Positions 1,635 to 46,168 are shown, numbered from the stretch's first letter. The stretch: 46,544 nucleotides of DNA from a virus (IMGVR_UViG_2851955134_000005); one strand, 5' to 3'. Notes: generated from the letters alone by a model not told the origin. Numbers and translations: made by a program.

Positions 1635-1757
1635 ATGCACGGTAATTCTGAAATGCAAAAAATCAACCAAACCAGCGCAATGCCTGAAAAAACTGACGTT
1701 CACTGGAGTGGTCGGTTTAGCGTTGCACCAATGCTCGATAGGATGTACCGTTTTTGA
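1635..1757 (+). pseudogene. dusA: displaced original 5' end of dusA (first 35 codons, then out-of-frame stop) at attL
   Basis: Encodes [35 protein letters not shown] then RMYRF-stop; homologous to the dusA 5' end at 45131-45233. Confidence 0.8.
1731..1738 (+). other. attL crossover region candidate (ATGCTCGA, last shared bases before homology breaks)
   Basis: Identity between the two dusA 5' copies ends at ATGCTCGA here and at 45226-45233. Confidence 0.45.
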
Positions 1758-1992
1758 AAAACAACTAGTTATACACTTTGTGGGAGCCTATTGGGAACCT
1801 GTTATTCTTAGAAAGCATCATTTGCTCATCACTTCAATTGACCATGATTAAAGCCAGCTATAAACTTGACAAACAAGGTAACTAGTTGCTTAGGCCTAAG
1901 TGGGCACACCATAAGAAGCTCATGTTGGTGATGAAGCAACCCATGAAGTATCGAGAATAATTACAAAGTTCACTATCTTTGAGGTTTCTTAT

Positions 1993-2565
1993 ATGTTTTG
2001 CGAAGAAAAAGTAGCTCAAATGGCTGCATACCTACTTCTTAAGCGAGGTGGGCGCATGGCATATCTGAAATTGATGAAGCTGCTCTATCTGTCTAACCGC
2101 AAGTCGATTTTGAAGCATGGCAGGATGATCGGCGAAGATAGCCTTTACTCTATGAAATTTGGTCCAGTCATGTCGAATACGCTGAACTTGATTCGTGGTA
2201 AGGCTGAAGGTATTGGTGACTACTGGTACAACCTGATAGAGACGAACGGGCATGATGTGTTGTTGCGTTCAGATCCGAGGGAAATGGATGCAGACGAGGT
2301 CTTTGATGAGTTGAGCCGTGCAGATATCCGGATTTTAGATGAAATCTATTCTCTGTATGGGCATATGAACCGATTTGATCTCGCAAACATGACGCATTTA
2401 GAAAGCGTTTGTCCAGAGTGGCACAATCCTGGCAATTCTCGTAAGCCTATAGACCTGAAAGAAATGCTGATCAGTGAGGGTAAAAGCGAGGATGAGGCTA
2501 ATCGTATAATTGGCAAAATGGAAGAATCTCAGAAACTTAAGGAATTTTCTTTGCAATTATCATGA
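1993..2565 (+). CDS. Panacea (DUF4065)-like domain protein, putative PanA/SocA-type antitoxin
   Basis: 190 aa; motif KLMKLLYL...FGPV resembles the DUF4065 core KLQKLLYY...GPV; RBS GAGG 8 nt upstream; stop overlaps next start (ATGA). Confidence 0.55.
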   Translation: MFCEEKVAQMAAYLLLKRGGRMAYLKLMKLLYLSNRKSILKHGRMIGEDSLYSMKFGPVMSNTLNLIRGKAEGIGDYWYNLIETNGHDVLLRSDPREMDADEVFDELSRADIRILDEIYSLYGHMNRFDLANMTHLESVCPEWHNPGNSRKPIDLKEMLISEGKSEDEANRIIGKMEESQKLKEFSLQLS

Positions 2566-2981
2566 CGGATTATCAGCCATACAGGAAAGGAACTGTGCTT
2601 GCCCCAACTGGGCCATGCAATCATCTTCATGTGATTTGTAATGATCCTGTTTATTACCCCGTTAACGATTGTTATTGTGTTTTAGTTGTTAATATTTCTA
2701 GTATCAAGGATGGTGTCCCCCACGATCCGTCTTGCGTCTTGAATTCTGGTGATCATCGCTTTATCAAGCATCCAAGTTATGTTGTTTACGCTGAAGCTAT
2801 AATTTGGCGAGTGGATAACATGGTTAGAAAGCAGCGATCGGGTGAGATTTCCGTTCATGATGATATGCCAGAAGCTACATTCAATAGAATTCTGGACGGT
2901 TTTGATATATCTGATGAAGTTACGCCAAAGAACCTTAAATTTAAAAATAAATATTGCGTATCATCTATTGATGATGAGTAA
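2562..2981 (+). CDS. hypothetical 139-aa Cys/His-rich protein, translationally coupled to the Panacea-like gene; candidate toxin/effector
   Basis: ATGA overlap with upstream stop; no recognisable family by eye. Confidence 0.5.
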   Translation: MTDYQPYRKGTVLAPTGPCNHLHVICNDPVYYPVNDCYCVLVVNISSIKDGVPHDPSCVLNSGDHRFIKHPSYVVYAEAIIWRVDNMVRKQRSGEISVHDDMPEATFNRILDGFDISDEVTPKNLKFKNKYCVSSIDDE

Positions 2982-3020
2982 ACAACAGGAATTGTTTCGG
3001 TATAGCTTCTGGAGTTTTCT

Positions 3021-3194
3021 ATGGAAGATCAAAAAGCAACCAAGCCACAGGTTAAGTTCGACACAATGAAAGCATTCGCAGGTATGGGTGCTGCTGTTGA
3101 AGTTCTGATGAAGGCTGCTCCTAATGCGTTCACTCACGCTACTGTCTCTGGTAAAGAGCAGCAGGGTAAGCTTCGTCGTCGCAAAGCAGCATGA
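3021..3194 (+). CDS. small hypothetical protein (57 aa, below ORF-track cutoff)
   Basis: ATG at 3021 preceded by GGAG; translation MEDQKATKPQVKFDTMKAFAGMGAAVEVLMKAAPNAFTHATVSGKEQQGKLRRRKAA; terminator directly downstream. Confidence 0.3.
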   Translation: MEDQKATKPQVKFDTMKAFAGMGAAVEVLMKAAPNAFTHATVSGKEQQGKLRRRKAA

Positions 3195-3212
3195 TCATAG
3201 CTGGTGCTTTTT

Positions 3213-3240
3213 GAAAACCCGCCTTTAGGCGGGTTTTTTC
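3213..3240. terminator. bidirectional rho-independent terminator
   Basis: A-run, CCCGCC-ttta-GGCGGG, T-run; sits between convergent genes ending at 3194 and 3242. Confidence 0.7.
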
Positions 3241-3241
3241 T

Positions 3242-43567: not shown

Positions 43568-43634
43568 TGGCTGGTTAACTTTCGATAGTGCGAGTATTGA
43601 ATGATTTCCAGCCGTTACCGATTTTACGTGTTAA

Positions 43635-43883
43635 TTAGTGAACAAACCACTCGTCAGCAGACTCCCAGGTATCTTTCAGAGTTTCCTGAACAAAAGTTTT
43701 AGCTGAATCTTTATCGGCGGTGCGCGTAACAGAAAGGCCATCGTTGCTGGTGGCTTTTACGATCACCTCTACATCGTCATAACGTTTACTGATGCGTCGG
43801 GTTAATTCTTCCTTTAACGCATCCACAGCACCGGTTGGCATTTTAGTCATTTTTTCTTTGGCTATGCAGATTTCAATACGCAT
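43635..43883 (-). CDS. dinI: DinI-like SOS-response modulator
   Basis: MRIE..IAK...P.GA.DAL..EL.RRI...........[13 protein letters not shown] parallels E. coli DinI. Confidence 0.8.
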
Positions 43884-43896
43884 AAAAGTCCCTCTA

Positions 43897-43916
43897 TACT
43901 GTGTTTGTATACAGTG
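43897..43916. promoter_or_regulatory. LexA box (SOS operator) upstream of the dinI-like gene
   Basis: TACTGTgtttgtatACAGTG fits CTGT-N8-ACAG. Confidence 0.6.
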
Positions 43917-43944
43917 TTATTTTTAACTGTATGGATAAACAGTG

Positions 43945-45042
43945 TCAAGAGGTCTTATTTCTGCTCTTTTGGAGCTCTTCAAAACGATTATGTAAAGATT
44001 TCGGATACAGTTCGGTATATACCTGCCATAGCACGTTTAATGAACGATGCCCTGTAACTTGGGCGACTTCCTCAATACTAAAACCAGCCTCAAATAAGCG
44101 ACTTGCCCCTTCTCTACGCAAATCATGGTATCGCAGATCTTTAATACCTAATTTGCTTCTTACCCTCTGAAATCCCGCAGTAACAGAAGTGCTGTTATAT
44201 GGAAAAATGAATTCCGATTTTTGGGGCTGTCGTTGGACGATATCCCAGGCTTCCCCAAGCAAGGCTACTTTCATGTGGTTGCCTTCCTTTTTGCGTGGAT
44301 CTTTCCTGTCTCTTACGAGTATAGATTTTTGTTCCTGGTCGAGATCTTCCCATCGTAACCGGCATACTTCTCCGATTCGCATACAGGACCACACAGAAAA
44401 TTTGAGGATATCAACGAACGGAATTTTTGAGCATTTATGTGTAGATCGTTGTTGAAGACCTTCAATGAGCATGTCCAGTTCATCAGATGCCGGTCTACGA
44501 TTACGACGGTTTGATTTACCAATCAAACCAAGTTTAAGTAGATATGGACGAGCACTTTTCGCCGGGTTTGATGTGTAATTAATTCCGTATACAGGTTTGG
44601 CCGCATCAAGAACACTGCCAAGATAACTAACATCGTGGCTGACTGTTGCTGGACCTGCACCAGCGTTGTTTCTTAGCCTACAATGTTCAATTACGTCATT
44701 TTCTGTCAGTTCGGATAGTTTGATCGCGGAGATGTCACTATCCATAAGCAGTTCCAGCACATATCTTTTAGTACGACCTGCTTTACCTCCGGCATTTGGG
44801 TCATTTAAATATTTGTGTAGTAAGTCACGGACTGTAAGTCCGTCAACTGCATTTGATGATGGAATGCCATATAGATCTAATTCCATCACTTTCTGTGTAC
44901 CCCATGTTTTGGCATGGGCATGTTTAGGGAATGTTTTGCTTTCCCTGTAAGTGATAACACCTTTTTCTTTGATAATCACATTACAGCGATAGCGTGGTGT
45001 GCCATCGGATTTTAGTCGTTTCTCTATGTTATAGTACGCCAT
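43945..45042 (-). CDS. tyrosine integrase, dusA-targeting type
   Basis: 365 aa with candidate catalytic Arg/His/Tyr residues; divergent from dusA 5' end, 89 bp away. Confidence 0.85.
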   Translation of the reverse strand: MAYYNIEKRLKSDGTPRYRCNVIIKEKGVITYRESKTFPKHAHAKTWGTQKVMELDLYGIPSSNAVDGLTVRDLLHKYLNDPNAGGKAGRTKRYVLELLMDSDISAIKLSELTENDVIEHCRLRNNAGAGPATVSHDVSYLGSVLDAAKPVYGINYTSNPAKSARPYLLKLGLIGKSNRRNRRPASDELDMLIEGLQQRSTHKCSKIPFVDILKFSVWSCMRIGEVCRLRWEDLDQEQKSILVRDRKDPRKKEGNHMKVALLGEAWDIVQRQPQKSEFIFPYNSTSVTAGFQRVRSKLGIKDLRYHDLRREGASRLFEAGFSIEEVAQVTGHRSLNVLWQVYTELYPKSLHNRFEELQKSRNKTS

Positions 45043-45130
45043 TACACGACCTCGTTATTTCGGGTTCCCATAAATCGTGGGAACCTGTGCGGGAACCTAA
45101 CGCGAGAAAAATAGCCTGAAATGTTCAAAA

Positions 45131-46168
45131 ATGCACGATAATCCTGAAACACAGAAAACTAATCAAACCAGCGCGATGCCTGAGAAAACTGGCGCTTACG
45201 GGAGTTCTCGGTTTAGCATTGCTCCTATGCTCGACTGGACGGACAGACATTGCCGCTATTTCTTGCGTCTGCTTTCCCGCAATACGCTGCTGTATACCGA
45301 AATGGTGACCACAGGGGCGATTATTCACGGTAAAGGTGATTACCTGGCGTACAGTGAAGAAGAACATCCGGTAGCGTTGCAACTCGGCGGTAGCGATCCG
45401 GCGGCGCTGGCGCAGTGTGCGAAGCTGGCAGAAGCGCGCGGATATGATGAGATCAACCTGAATGTCGGCTGCCCGTCTGACCGGGTGCAGAACGGCATGT
45501 TTGGTGCGTGTCTGATGGGTAATGCGCAGCTGGTTGCCGACTGCGTGAAAGCGATGCGCGATGTGGTGTCGATTCCGGTGACGGTGAAAACGCGTATTGG
45601 CATCGATGACCAGGACAGCTATGAATTTCTCTGCAATTTCATCAACACCGTTTCCGGCAAAGGCGAGTGTGAGATGTTCATCATCCACGCACGTAAAGCC
45701 TGGCTTTCGGGGTTAAGTCCGAAAGAAAACCGTGAGATCCCGCCGCTCGATTATCCGCGTGTGTATCAACTGAAGCGTGACTTTCCGCATCTGACAATGT
45801 CGATTAACGGTGGTATCAAGTCGCTGGAAGAGGCCAAAGCACACCTGCAACATATGGATGGCGTGATGGTCGGGCGCGAGGCGTATCAGAATCCGGGTAT
45901 TCTGGCGGCGGTAGACCGGGAGATCTTTGGTTCCTCGGATATCGATGCCGATCCGGTGGCGGTAGTGCGCGCCATGTATCCGTACATTGAGCGTGAACTC
46001 AGCCAGGGGACGTATCTCGGTCATATTACCCGGCATATGTTGGGCTTGTTCCAGGGTATTCCTGGCGCGCGGCAGTGGCGGCGTTATTTAAGTGAAAATG
46101 CCCATAAAGCGGGTGCAGACATTAATGTGCTGGAACACGCGCTCAAACTGGTGGCGGATAAGCGTTAA
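45131..46168 (+). CDS. dusA: tRNA-dihydrouridine synthase A with phage-supplied N-terminus
   Basis: Full-length 345 aa; TIM-barrel Dus motifs; N-terminal 35 residues differ from the displaced copy at 1635. Confidence 0.9.
45226..45233 (+). other. attR crossover region candidate (ATGCTCGA)
   Basis: Counterpart of 1731-1738. Confidence 0.45.

What the first reader, a model, noticed from the sequence alone, without database searches (positions are those of the whole stretch)
1635..45233. Lambdoid prophage inserted in the 5' end of dusA, carrying a surrogate dusA N-terminus
Two homologous but divergent segments of about 105 bp (1631-1738 and 45127-45233) both encode a DusA N-terminus. The left copy (MHGNSEMQKINQ...APMLD) hits a stop after 40 codons. 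The right copy ([12 protein letters not shown]...APMLD) continues into full-length DusA. Similarity stops at the same octamer ATGCTCGA in both. A tyrosine integrase lies divergently 89 bp upstream of the right copy. This fits the known class of dusA-specific integrases whose elements replace the 5' end of the target gene. The unit is about 43.5 kb.
Basis: partly seen in the sequence, partly recalled or inferred. Interest (0 to 1): 0.55.

Follow-up and report, generated by a model that had tools for sequence, protein, structure and literature searches.

The report
Lambda-like prophage inserted in dusA
This is an ordinary, well-documented case: a 43.5-kb lambda-like E. coli prophage sits in the start of the tRNA-modification gene dusA and brings its own replacement for the gene's first 100 bases, so the gene stays whole.

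Summary
Segments 1631-1738 and 45127-45234 are 88/108 identical. The left copy is the native dusA 5' end. Left copy plus right flank is 100% contiguous in many E. coli genomes, and unoccupied in 3615 of 5426. The right copy is phage DNA fused in frame to the rest of dusA.

The predicted attP junction (45043-45234 joined to 1739 onward) exists as contiguous DNA in the phage genome records mEp460 and SKA5. Strand exchange is bounded to ATGCTCGA.

The integrase is 360/365 identical to mEp460 Int, a named member of the dusA-associated integrase family (Farrugia 2015). A near-identical Stx phage, Phi1720a-02, was shown experimentally to integrate 100 bp into dusA. A PrtN/RdfN-type excision factor lies at 3242-3523. 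All lambdoid modules are present.

This is already known, and the interest is low.

One detail I did not find described: attP carries lambda-style arm sites. Three GGGAACC copies lie in the int-dusA' spacer and two lie 43 bp past the core. Their layout is conserved and their sequence changes together with the Int N-terminal domain across species. The surrogate dusA coding stretch therefore lies inside attP.

The parts
1635..1757 (+). attL side: the native dusA 5' end (35 native codons, 1635-1739), displaced from the rest of the gene. It runs into phage DNA and stops after 40 codons.
   Evidence: Translation. 100% identical to the 5' end of unoccupied dusA in many E. coli genomes. PGAP annotates the same 105-nt remnant as an incomplete tRNA-dihydrouridine synthase in strain MS6198.
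1731..1738 (.). Core / crossover region at attL (ATGCTCGA).
   Evidence: attB, attP, attL and attR are identical only here. They differ at the base immediately to the left (A vs T) and to the right (C vs T). A 7-base core is reported for the near-identical Phi1720a-02 (PMC6328086).
1781..1801 (+). P' arm: two direct copies of the arm-type motif (TGGGAGCCT, TGGGAACCT) 11 bp apart, 43 bp past the core.
   Evidence: Similarity with mEp460 runs through these sites and is then lost. The same layout, with other motif sequences, occurs in phages YeP1 and AS1.
1993..2981 (+). Cargo cassette just inside attL: a Panacea-domain (SocA-like antitoxin) gene at 1993-2565 and a 139-aa gene at 2562-2981 that overlaps it by 4 bp. 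A small ORF and a hairpin terminator (3213-3238) follow.
   Evidence: PF13274, E 1.8e-18. No PADLOC hit. Terminator scan. Present in SKA5 and Lys8385Vzw; mEp460 has another gene at this position.
3242..3523 (-). rdfN-type recombination directionality factor (PrtN family, 93 aa), the last gene of the leftward early operon.
   Evidence: PF11112, E 3e-23. PHROG 1300 'excisionase', E 1e-39. RdfN was shown to be the RDF of dusA-specific elements (PMC8409611).
3560..8076 (-). Leftward early genes: a 3'-5' exonuclease, DUF551 proteins, a YfdR-like 5'-deoxynucleotidase, a YfdQ-like protein and others.
9223..10769 (.). Immunity region: a CI-like LexA/S24-family repressor (9223-9849, minus strand), Cro (9947-10147), a CII-like activator (ORF 10071-10769), and three operator-like repeats (9138-9168, 9866-9896, 9915-9945).
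   Evidence: PHROG 4, 409 and 101. Repeat family D6.
11114..18237 (+). Replication and nin-like region: an O-like initiator, RusA, a KilA-N protein, a DUF968/HNH protein, the Q antiterminator (15107-15901) and a DNA methyltransferase (17185-18237).
18304..19480 (+). Lysis cassette: holin, endolysin and an Rz-like protein.
20316..43187 (+). Morphogenesis genes: terS, terL, portal, protease/major-capsid fusion, tape measure (29811-32906), J (35297-38776), Lom (38844-39443), side tail fibre (39460-41865), and a second fibre protein with an S74 chaperone domain (42147-43187).
   Evidence: 98% of 25000-45234 is covered at 96.7% identity by phage PhiR47_1, and 78% by mEp460.
43635..43942 (-). dinI-like gene (43635-43883) with two LexA-box-like sites (43899-43914 and 43927-43942) in its upstream region, which abuts the int stop codon.
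   Evidence: PF06183. CTGT-N8-ACAG matches: 3 in the window against 0.7 expected.
43945..45042 (-). dusA-associated tyrosine integrase, 365 aa.
   Evidence: PF00589. 360/365 identical to mEp460 Int. R222, K247, H306, R309, H332 and Y342 are present and conserved in 90 homologues. The AF2 model (pLDDT 87.9) has an N-terminal three-strand-plus-helix domain and aligns over its full length with lambda Int.
45062..45098 (.). P arm: one inverted copy (GGGTTCCC) and two direct copies (TGGGAACCT, CGGGAACCT, 12 bp apart) of the arm-type motif, inside the 88-bp int-dusA' spacer.
   Evidence: 5 of the 10 GGGARCC matches in the window lie within about 255 bp of attP (p about 1e-9, post hoc). The 12-bp geometry recurs in 22 of 32 species against 0.2 in shuffles.
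45131..45234 (+). Phage-borne surrogate dusA 5' end ([35 protein letters not shown]), ending in the attR core ATGCTCGA (45227-45234).
   Evidence: Contiguous with phage DNA in SKA5 and mEp460. Only about 88% identical to native dusA.
45235..46168 (+). Native remainder of dusA, fused in frame to the surrogate start.
   Evidence: 100% identical to unoccupied loci. The complete DusA passes both NCBIfam models.

Best explanation
An mEp460-like lambdoid siphophage of 43,496 bp (1739-45234) is integrated by site-specific recombination into codon 33-35 of E. coli dusA.

Its integrase belongs to the dusA-associated integrase (DAI) family. Strand exchange took place inside the 7-8 bp overlap (A)TGCTCGA. 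In attP this overlap is flanked by a perfect inverted repeat, TCCTA/TAGGA. Between int and the core, attP carries a start codon and about 32 codons that mimic the dusA N-terminus. Integration therefore moves the native promoter and the first 100 bp to the far end (attL). A phage-supplied start is fused in frame to the rest of the gene at attR, which keeps the first beta-strand of the TIM barrel (RFSIAPMLD).

Shown here:
- the two junctions;
- the empty site;
- the attP junction in free phage genomes;
- family membership of Int.

Inferred:
- Int works like lambda Int, as a heterobivalent recombinase. Its N-terminal three-strand-plus-helix domain would bind the GGGAACC arm sites (three on the P arm, two on the P' arm).
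- Excision needs the PrtN-family factor RdfN (3242-3523). RdfN sits at the end of the CI-repressed leftward operon, so excision would follow SOS-induced loss of the LexA-like repressor.
- int has its own promoter in the P arm.
- The int-attP-rdfN module is contiguous only in the circular form.
For: - Repeat and ORFs.
- Empty site: 100% contiguous in H1-H15 and unoccupied in 3615/5426 genomes. The int-dusA' junction is present in 727/5426 genomes.
- attP: contiguous in SKA5 and mEp460; in Lys8385Vzw it carries an 8-bp core duplication.
- Int: 99% identical to mEp460 Int, which is named as a DAI homologue in PMC4482086. tblastn also recovers the other phages of that list (BcepIL02, DC1, BcepMigl, AH2, H66) at 34-36% identity, E 1e-54 to 1e-62.
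- Phi1720a-02 is 97.4% identical over the int half. It was shown by sequencing to integrate 100 bp into dusA with a 7-base core and to regenerate attP in vivo (PMC6328086).
- RdfN: PF11112 and the PHROG 'excisionase' family. Experimental role in PMC8409611.
- Relatives in 34 of 52 other species lie beside dusA. In most, int starts about 88-90 bp from the dusA start.
- Arm sites.
- Int fold.
- Lambdoid modules.
Against: - No excision data exist for this strain. A point defect somewhere in the prophage cannot be excluded.
- The simple sigma-70 scan found no promoter in the 88-bp int-dusA' spacer. It found none upstream of native dusA either. How the hybrid dusA and int are transcribed is therefore not shown.
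- Assigning the arm motif to Int, rather than to RdfN or another factor, rests on covariation among related sequences and a predicted fold, not on binding data.
- The N-terminal domain has no sequence-level match to known arm-binding domains in Pfam or the PDB.
Confidence: 0.93

Rival explanations
1. The prophage is a fixed, defective remnant. The junctions are relics of an old integration and the element can no longer excise or form particles.
For: Nothing specific. No complete E. coli genome carries exactly this mosaic; the best covers 84% of 250-24000 at 97.6%. Activity therefore cannot be inferred from an identical, characterised phage. An IS1 lies nearby in the host flank.
Against: - All modules are present as long open frames.
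- Int keeps every catalytic and family-invariant residue.
- attL and attR are undamaged.
- rdfN is intact.
- The closest relatives are deposited as phage genomes (mEp460, SKA5, PhiR47_1).
Confidence: 0.15
2. The in-frame surrogate is only a by-product of attP-attB homology. Integration effectively inactivates or deregulates dusA, and the fusion protein is not made or not active.
For: - No promoter-like site or obvious Shine-Dalgarno sequence was found ahead of 45131.
- 9 of the first 26 residues differ from the native protein.
- Loss of dusA gave no phenotype in Acinetobacter phenotype arrays (PMC4482086), so selection could be weak.
Against: - Free phages with integrases only 36-68% identical still keep an ATG, an open frame and the strand motif RF(S/C)VAPM(L/M)D up to the core, with stops soon after.
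- The changes in the beta-strand part are one conservative substitution (V to I) and two synonymous changes.
- The replaced region lies mostly outside the conserved DusA models, which begin at residues 19-27.
- For IMEVchUSA3, a new promoter and restored dusA expression were reported (PMC8409611 abstract).
Confidence: 0.1
3. The orientation is reversed: the right copy is native and the left copy belongs to the element. Alternatively, the repeat is an assembly or duplication artefact.
For: None found.
Against: - Unoccupied loci match the left copy at 100% and the right copy at about 88%.
- The right copy is contiguous with phage DNA in phage records.
- The same junction occurs in 727 complete genomes.
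Confidence: 0.01

Closest known systems
Enterobacteria phage mEp460 (JQ182728) and its relatives SKA5, PhiR40_1/PhiR47_1/PhiR55_1 and Lys8385Vzw
   Same: Int is 360/365 identical, and 100% identical to the Int of PhiR40_1 and PhiR55_1. attP is the same through both sets of arm sites. The late region is about 97% identical and the lambdoid order is the same.
   Different: The early and cargo regions are mosaic. No record covers more than about 62% of the left half. mEp460 has a different gene where the window has the Panacea cassette.
Stx2d phage Phi1720a-02 (KF030445), integrated in Citrobacter rodentium dusA (PMC6328086)
   Same: 97.4% nucleotide identity over the int-side half of attP. It integrates 100 bp into dusA, carries a phage-encoded 'Phi-dusA'' start in frame, has a 7-base core, and has int at the end away from the early genes.
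   Different: It carries stx2 and the window prophage does not (no Stx family). The host is different.
dusA-associated integrase (DAI) elements of Farrugia et al. 2015 (PMC4482086)
   Same: A tyrosine recombinase divergent from dusA, replacement of the dusA 5' end, a displaced native 5' end at the far junction, semi-conserved att repeats, and a frequent PrtN homologue.
   Different: None in kind. This is the E. coli lambdoid branch of the family.
IMEVchUSA3 and other Vibrio dusA-specific islands, with RdfN (PMC8409611)
   Same: The same target and a PF11112 RDF on the other side of attP from int. The element supplies a new promoter and restores the frame.
   Different: Those are IncC-mobilised islands whose rdfN is driven by AcaCD. 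Here rdfN ends a CI-repressed phage operon (inferred).
Lambda Int / attP
   Same: The predicted three-domain fold aligns with full-length lambda Int (1z1g, 5j0n). attP spans about 240 bp with repeated arm sites on both sides of a 7-8 bp overlap. A separate small RDF is present.
   Different: No detectable sequence similarity in the N-domain. int lies on the other side of attP and is not co-transcribed with the RDF. The P arm doubles as coding sequence for the target gene.

Membership tests
dusA-associated integrases (DAI; Farrugia 2015) | Tyrosine recombinase with the RHRH tetrad and the nucleophilic tyrosine. | tested here: met
   PF00589 at 75 bits. R222, H306, R309, H332 and Y342 are present. 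R222, H332 and Y342 are invariant and H306 and R309 nearly invariant among 90 homologues.
dusA-associated integrases (DAI; Farrugia 2015) | Sequence homology to recognised family members. | tested here: met
   99% identical to mEp460 Int, which the paper lists. tblastn also finds BcepIL02, DC1, BcepMigl, AH2 and H66 at 34-36% identity, E <= 1e-54. Not tested: the stated sister relation to Rci.
dusA-associated integrases (DAI; Farrugia 2015) | int lies next to, and divergent from, the 5' end of dusA. | tested here: met
   int 43945-45042 (minus strand), dusA' ATG at 45131, 88-bp spacer. The same arrangement occurs in 34 of 52 related loci from other species.
dusA-associated integrases (DAI; Farrugia 2015) | The element supplies a new dusA 5' end, and the native 5' end is left at the distal junction. 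| tested here: met
dusA-associated integrases (DAI; Farrugia 2015) | Semi-conserved ~21-bp att repeat around the crossover. | tested here: met
   attR GCTCCTATGCTCGACTGGA and attB GCACCAATGCTCGACTGGA match the published C. rodentium attB (reverse complement GCTCCCATGCTCGACTGGA) at 18/19 and 17/19 positions. The logo of the original paper could not be read, because figures are not held.
dusA-associated integrases (DAI; Farrugia 2015) | Excision as a circle that restores native dusA. | not testable with these tools
   Indirect only. The attP junction exists in phage genome records, and excision was shown for Phi1720a-02.
RdfN (PrtN-domain recombination directionality factors; Durand 2021) | A small PF11112 protein encoded by a dusA-specific element, across attP from int. 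| tested here: met
   93 aa, PF11112 E 3e-23. PHROG 1300 'excisionase'. Position 1.5 kb inside attL. RDF activity itself was not tested.
Lambdoid phages | Lambda-type modular order: immunity CI/Cro/CII, O-type replication, nin/RusA, Q, lysis, cos-type terminase, head, tail with H and J, Lom, side fibres. | tested here: met
   The late half is about 97% identical to mEp460 and PhiR47_1. No N-type antiterminator was identified. int is on the non-canonical side of attP, as noted for Phi1720a-02.
Heterobivalent (lambda-Int-like) integrases | An N-terminal arm-binding domain, plus repeated arm-type sites on both attP arms that are distinct from the core sites. | tested here: inconclusive
   Fold: strands 2-10, 16-26 and 29-38 plus helix 41-58, block-mean pLDDT 83-95 over residues 1-60. 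Full-length alignment to lambda Int. Sites. Covariation with residues 20-36. There are no binding data and no sequence match to known arm-binding domains.

The most novel reading that the evidence does not exclude
dusA-associated integrases are lambda-like heterobivalent recombinases. The roughly 100-bp surrogate dusA coding stretch lies inside attP, between the arm-type sites and the core, so it would have to serve both as coding sequence and as P-arm DNA. The three P-arm sites fill the 88-bp divergent int/dusA' control region. Int occupancy could therefore autoregulate int and tie expression of the host's hybrid dusA to the state of the prophage. I found no description of arm-type sites for this family in the searchable literature.
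Probability: 0.25. Interest if true: 0.4.

Novelty: already known. Interest (0 to 1): 0.14.

Why it matters
It matters little beyond correct annotation. The dusA 5' end is a recognised integration hot spot. About a third of complete E. coli genomes lack a contiguous site, and 13% carry this very integrase. The surrogate-N-terminus trick is published (2015, 2019, 2021).

Practical value:
- The 105-nt 'partial dusA' at 1635-1739 is a marker of attL, not a decayed gene.
- The dusA at 45131 is a phage-host hybrid.
- The prophage boundaries can be set to the base (1739-45234).

The arm-site architecture and its co-variation with the Int N-domain is a modest addition. It could help in predicting attP limits for the whole family. 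It also suggests how relatives switched to other targets (srmB, upp, pgl, pyrD) while keeping the P arm.

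Tried and rejected
- Simple sigma-70 and terminator scans of both junctions gave no promoter in the int-dusA' spacer and none upstream of native dusA. This was uninformative.
- Pfam on Int residues 1-75 and 1-180, phmmer on residues 1-75, and a 32-sequence N-domain profile against the PDB gave no meaningful hit.
- AF2 without an alignment gave pLDDT 41.5 and was unusable. It was repeated with 90 homologues.
- A first motif scan was too permissive: an 8-mer triplet with <=1 mismatch occurred in 10-30% of shuffles. 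I replaced it with the fixed 12-bp-spacing test.
- The IMG/VR scan returned almost only >=98% identical E. coli prophages, so it gave no new diversity.
- PADLOC gave no hit for the Panacea cassette or the other cargo genes.
- Rfam and tRNA scans found nothing.
- No complete E. coli genome carries this exact prophage.
- I considered a shiga-toxin or effector cargo at 42147-43187 and rejected it. It is a tail-fibre protein with an S74 chaperone domain.

Full report
**1. The observation**

The two segments are real. Positions 1631-1738 and 45127-45234 align without gaps at 88 of 108 bases. They are the only long-range repeat of that size in the window (family D4). Chance cannot produce this: about 3e-19 over all pairs of positions.

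The left copy opens a 40-codon frame that stops in foreign DNA. The right copy opens a complete 345-aa DusA that passes both NCBIfam DusA models. Both copies end in ATGCTCGA.

There are three minor corrections. The right copy ends at 45234. The int-dusA' spacer is 88 bp. Seven of the next 12 bases still match after the octamer.

**2. Which copy is native**

I joined 1239-1738 to 45235-45733 and searched 5,426 complete E. coli genomes. The composite is 100% identical and contiguous in many of them. It is contiguous in 3,615 genomes.

Conversely, the int-plus-right-copy junction (43900-45300) is present in full in 727 genomes. Unoccupied strains such as K-12 MG1655 match the right copy only from 45128 onward, at about 88%.

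So the left copy is the original dusA start and the right copy came with the element. NCBI's pipeline already annotates the same 105-nt remnant as a partial tRNA-dihydrouridine synthase in strain MS6198.

**3. The attP junction exists in free phages**

Joining 44735-45234 to 1739-2238 gives a predicted attP. It is contiguous over all 1,000 bases in Escherichia phage SKA5 (97.3%) and in Lys8385Vzw (96.6%). It is contiguous through 61 bp beyond the core in mEp460.

In the alignment the window's reconstruction matches SKA5 and mEp460 base for base across the core. Lys8385Vzw has an extra copy of ATGCTCGA. I read this as an artefact of building a circle from prophage ends, which is an inference.

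The four att sites compare as follows:

| Site | Sequence |
|---|---|
| attB | CACCA-ATGCTCGA-CTGGACG |
| attP | CTCCT-ATGCTCGA-TAGGATG |
| attL | CACCA-ATGCTCGA-TAGGATG |
| attR | CTCCT-ATGCTCGA-CTGGACG |

Exchange is therefore bounded to these 8 bases. In attP the 7-bp centre TGCTCGA is flanked by a perfect inverted repeat, TCCTA/TAGGA, as expected for core-type half-sites.

**4. The recombinase and its family**

The 365-aa protein has a PF00589 catalytic domain and the residues R222, K247, H306, R309, H332 and Y342. It is 360/365 identical to mEp460 Int.

Farrugia et al. 2015 defined the dusA-associated integrases. They listed mEp460 among the phage homologues, described replacement of the dusA 5' end, and demonstrated excision (PMC4482086). 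A tblastn search of phage genomes recovers the other phages on their list at 34-36% identity.

Stx phage Phi1720a-02 is 97.4% identical over the int half of attP. It was shown to integrate 100 bp into dusA of Citrobacter rodentium with a 7-base core, to encode an in-frame 'Phi-dusA'', and to regenerate attP in vivo (PMC6328086).

In a scan of one genome per species, 34 of 52 relatives (44-99% identical) lie divergently beside dusA. In most of them int starts about 88-90 bp from the dusA start.

**5. Directionality factor**

The 93-aa product of 3242-3523 (minus strand) belongs to PF11112 (PrtN) and to a PHROG family annotated as excisionase. Durand et al. 2021 showed that such a protein, RdfN, is the RDF of dusA-specific elements and lies across attP from int (PMC8409611).

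Here it is the last gene of the leftward early operon, downstream of a LexA/S24-type CI repressor (9223-9849) and operator-like repeats. I infer that excision is triggered when the repressor is lost on SOS induction. This is not shown.

**6. The element as a whole**

All lambdoid modules are present in the usual order:
- immunity: CI, Cro and a CII-like activator;
- replication and nin-like region: O-like initiator, RusA, Q;
- lysis cassette: holin, endolysin, Rz;
- packaging and head: terS, terL, portal, protease-capsid fusion;
- tail: tape measure, J, Lom, side tail fibres;
- right end: dinI, then int.

The late half is 98% covered at 96.7% identity by phage PhiR47_1, and 78% by mEp460. The early half is mosaic, with at most 62% coverage by any phage record. 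No complete E. coli genome holds exactly this combination. The unit is 43,496 bp.

**7. What I add: arm-type sites**

GGGARCC occurs 10 times in the window, which is the chance number. But five of the ten lie within about 255 bp of attP (p about 1e-9, post hoc):
- P arm: one inverted and two direct copies, 12 bp apart, in the int-dusA' spacer (45062-45098);
- P' arm: two direct copies, 11 bp apart, 43 bp past the core (1781-1801).

Across 32 dusA-adjacent loci from different species, 22 have a 9-mer repeated at exactly 12 bp in the same place, and 20 of these have an inverted copy upstream. Shuffles give 0.2 loci on average (maximum 2), and other spacings are rare.

The motif itself differs between lineages (GGGAACCT, GGGGTGCT, GGTGTACT, GGTGTCCT, GGATACCT). 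It tracks residues 20-36 of Int.

In free phage genomes with 68% and 36% identical integrases (YeP1, Marinobacter AS1), the lineage's own motif appears on both arms with the same 12-bp and 11-bp geometry. In phage C5a (54% identical) the motif GGGTGAC recurs twice on the P arm, but the P' arm differs: it has a different palindromic element plus one inverted copy of the motif.

An AlphaFold model built with 90 homologues (pLDDT 87.9) gives an N-terminal three-stranded sheet plus helix (residues 2-58). It is followed by core-binding and catalytic domains. The model aligns over its full length with full-length lambda Int (1z1g, 5j0n).

I conclude, as an inference, that these integrases work like lambda Int, and that the surrogate dusA coding stretch sits inside attP between the arm and core sites. 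Relatedness of the sequences inflates the covariation argument, and there are no binding data. I found no paper in the library that describes arm-type sites for this family.

**8. Is the fusion functional?**

The replaced part is mostly the poorly conserved N-terminal extension; the NCBIfam models begin at residues 19-27. In the beta-strand part the changes are one V-to-I substitution and two synonymous changes.

Distant free phages still keep an ATG, an open frame and RF(S/C)VAPM(L/M)D up to the core, with stops just after it. Farrugia et al. argue that the new sequence supplies the first TIM-barrel strand. Durand et al. report a new promoter and a restored frame.

My promoter scan was uninformative.

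**9. Verdict**

The feature is already known in kind. It is also known for near-identical phages, and is even routinely annotated. Interest is low. The only modestly new element is the conserved, co-varying arm-site architecture.

Noticed in passing
window 1-330 (minus strand): The window begins inside an IS1 copy. The 91-aa ORF at 1-276 has both InsA domains (PF03811, PF12759). By my reading, the terminal inverted repeat ends at about 330. By comparison with strain MS6198, the IS sits about 19 bp into the DUF2713 (yjbL/yjbM-like) gene, whose remainder runs to 1274.
   Followed up: partly
window 1993-2981 (+): A Panacea-domain (SocA-like antitoxin) gene and a 139-aa gene overlap by 4 bp in the variable slot just inside attL. 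They point the same way as the displaced native dusA promoter. This is a candidate toxin-antitoxin or defence cargo. It has no PADLOC or Pfam match for the partner protein. It is present in SKA5 and Lys8385Vzw, and mEp460 has another gene at this position.
   Followed up: partly
L025-L034, L047, L048 (Xenorhabdus, Serratia, Pseudomonas lundensis): Integrases 60-64% identical to the window's are not next to dusA. They lie divergently upstream of srmB-like, upp, pgl, pyrD, nlpC-like and membrane-sensor genes. Most keep the P-arm layout: two GGGGTGCT copies 12 bp apart in 9 of 11 loci. All six loci examined keep a close variant of AAATGCACGAAAAT. However, the ORF from that ATG breaks after 2-8 codons in five of the six and after 42 in the sixth (L030). 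Target switching seems to have kept the P arm, and the dusA-like start may be vestigial or a DNA-level site.
   Followed up: partly
window 43899-43942: Two LexA-box-like sites (CTGT-N8-ACAG) lie between the dinI-like gene and the int stop codon, overlapping a promoter-like site (TTGACA-18-AAAAAT). There are 3 such sites in the window against 0.7 expected.
   Followed up: no
window 9138-9168, 9866-9896, 9915-9945: Three copies of a 31-nt operator-like repeat flank the CI-like repressor gene. Two lie between cI and cro and one lies downstream of cI, presumably OR and OL.
   Followed up: no
window 39923-40472: Several overlapping repeat families with 42-, 84- and 189-nt periods lie inside the side tail fibre gene. 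I read them as repeats in the fibre's coding sequence, which is my interpretation.
   Followed up: no
L002 (phage Lys8385Vzw, MT225100) about 1995-2010: This 'circular' phage record carries ATGCTCGA twice in tandem at attP. This looks like a circle closed by joining prophage ends that each include the core.
   Followed up: no
window 337-396: Two tandem 30-nt repeats lie at the start of the remaining DUF2713 coding region. Similarity to strain MS6198 only begins after them, at 392, so the repeat number or sequence may vary between strains.
   Followed up: no
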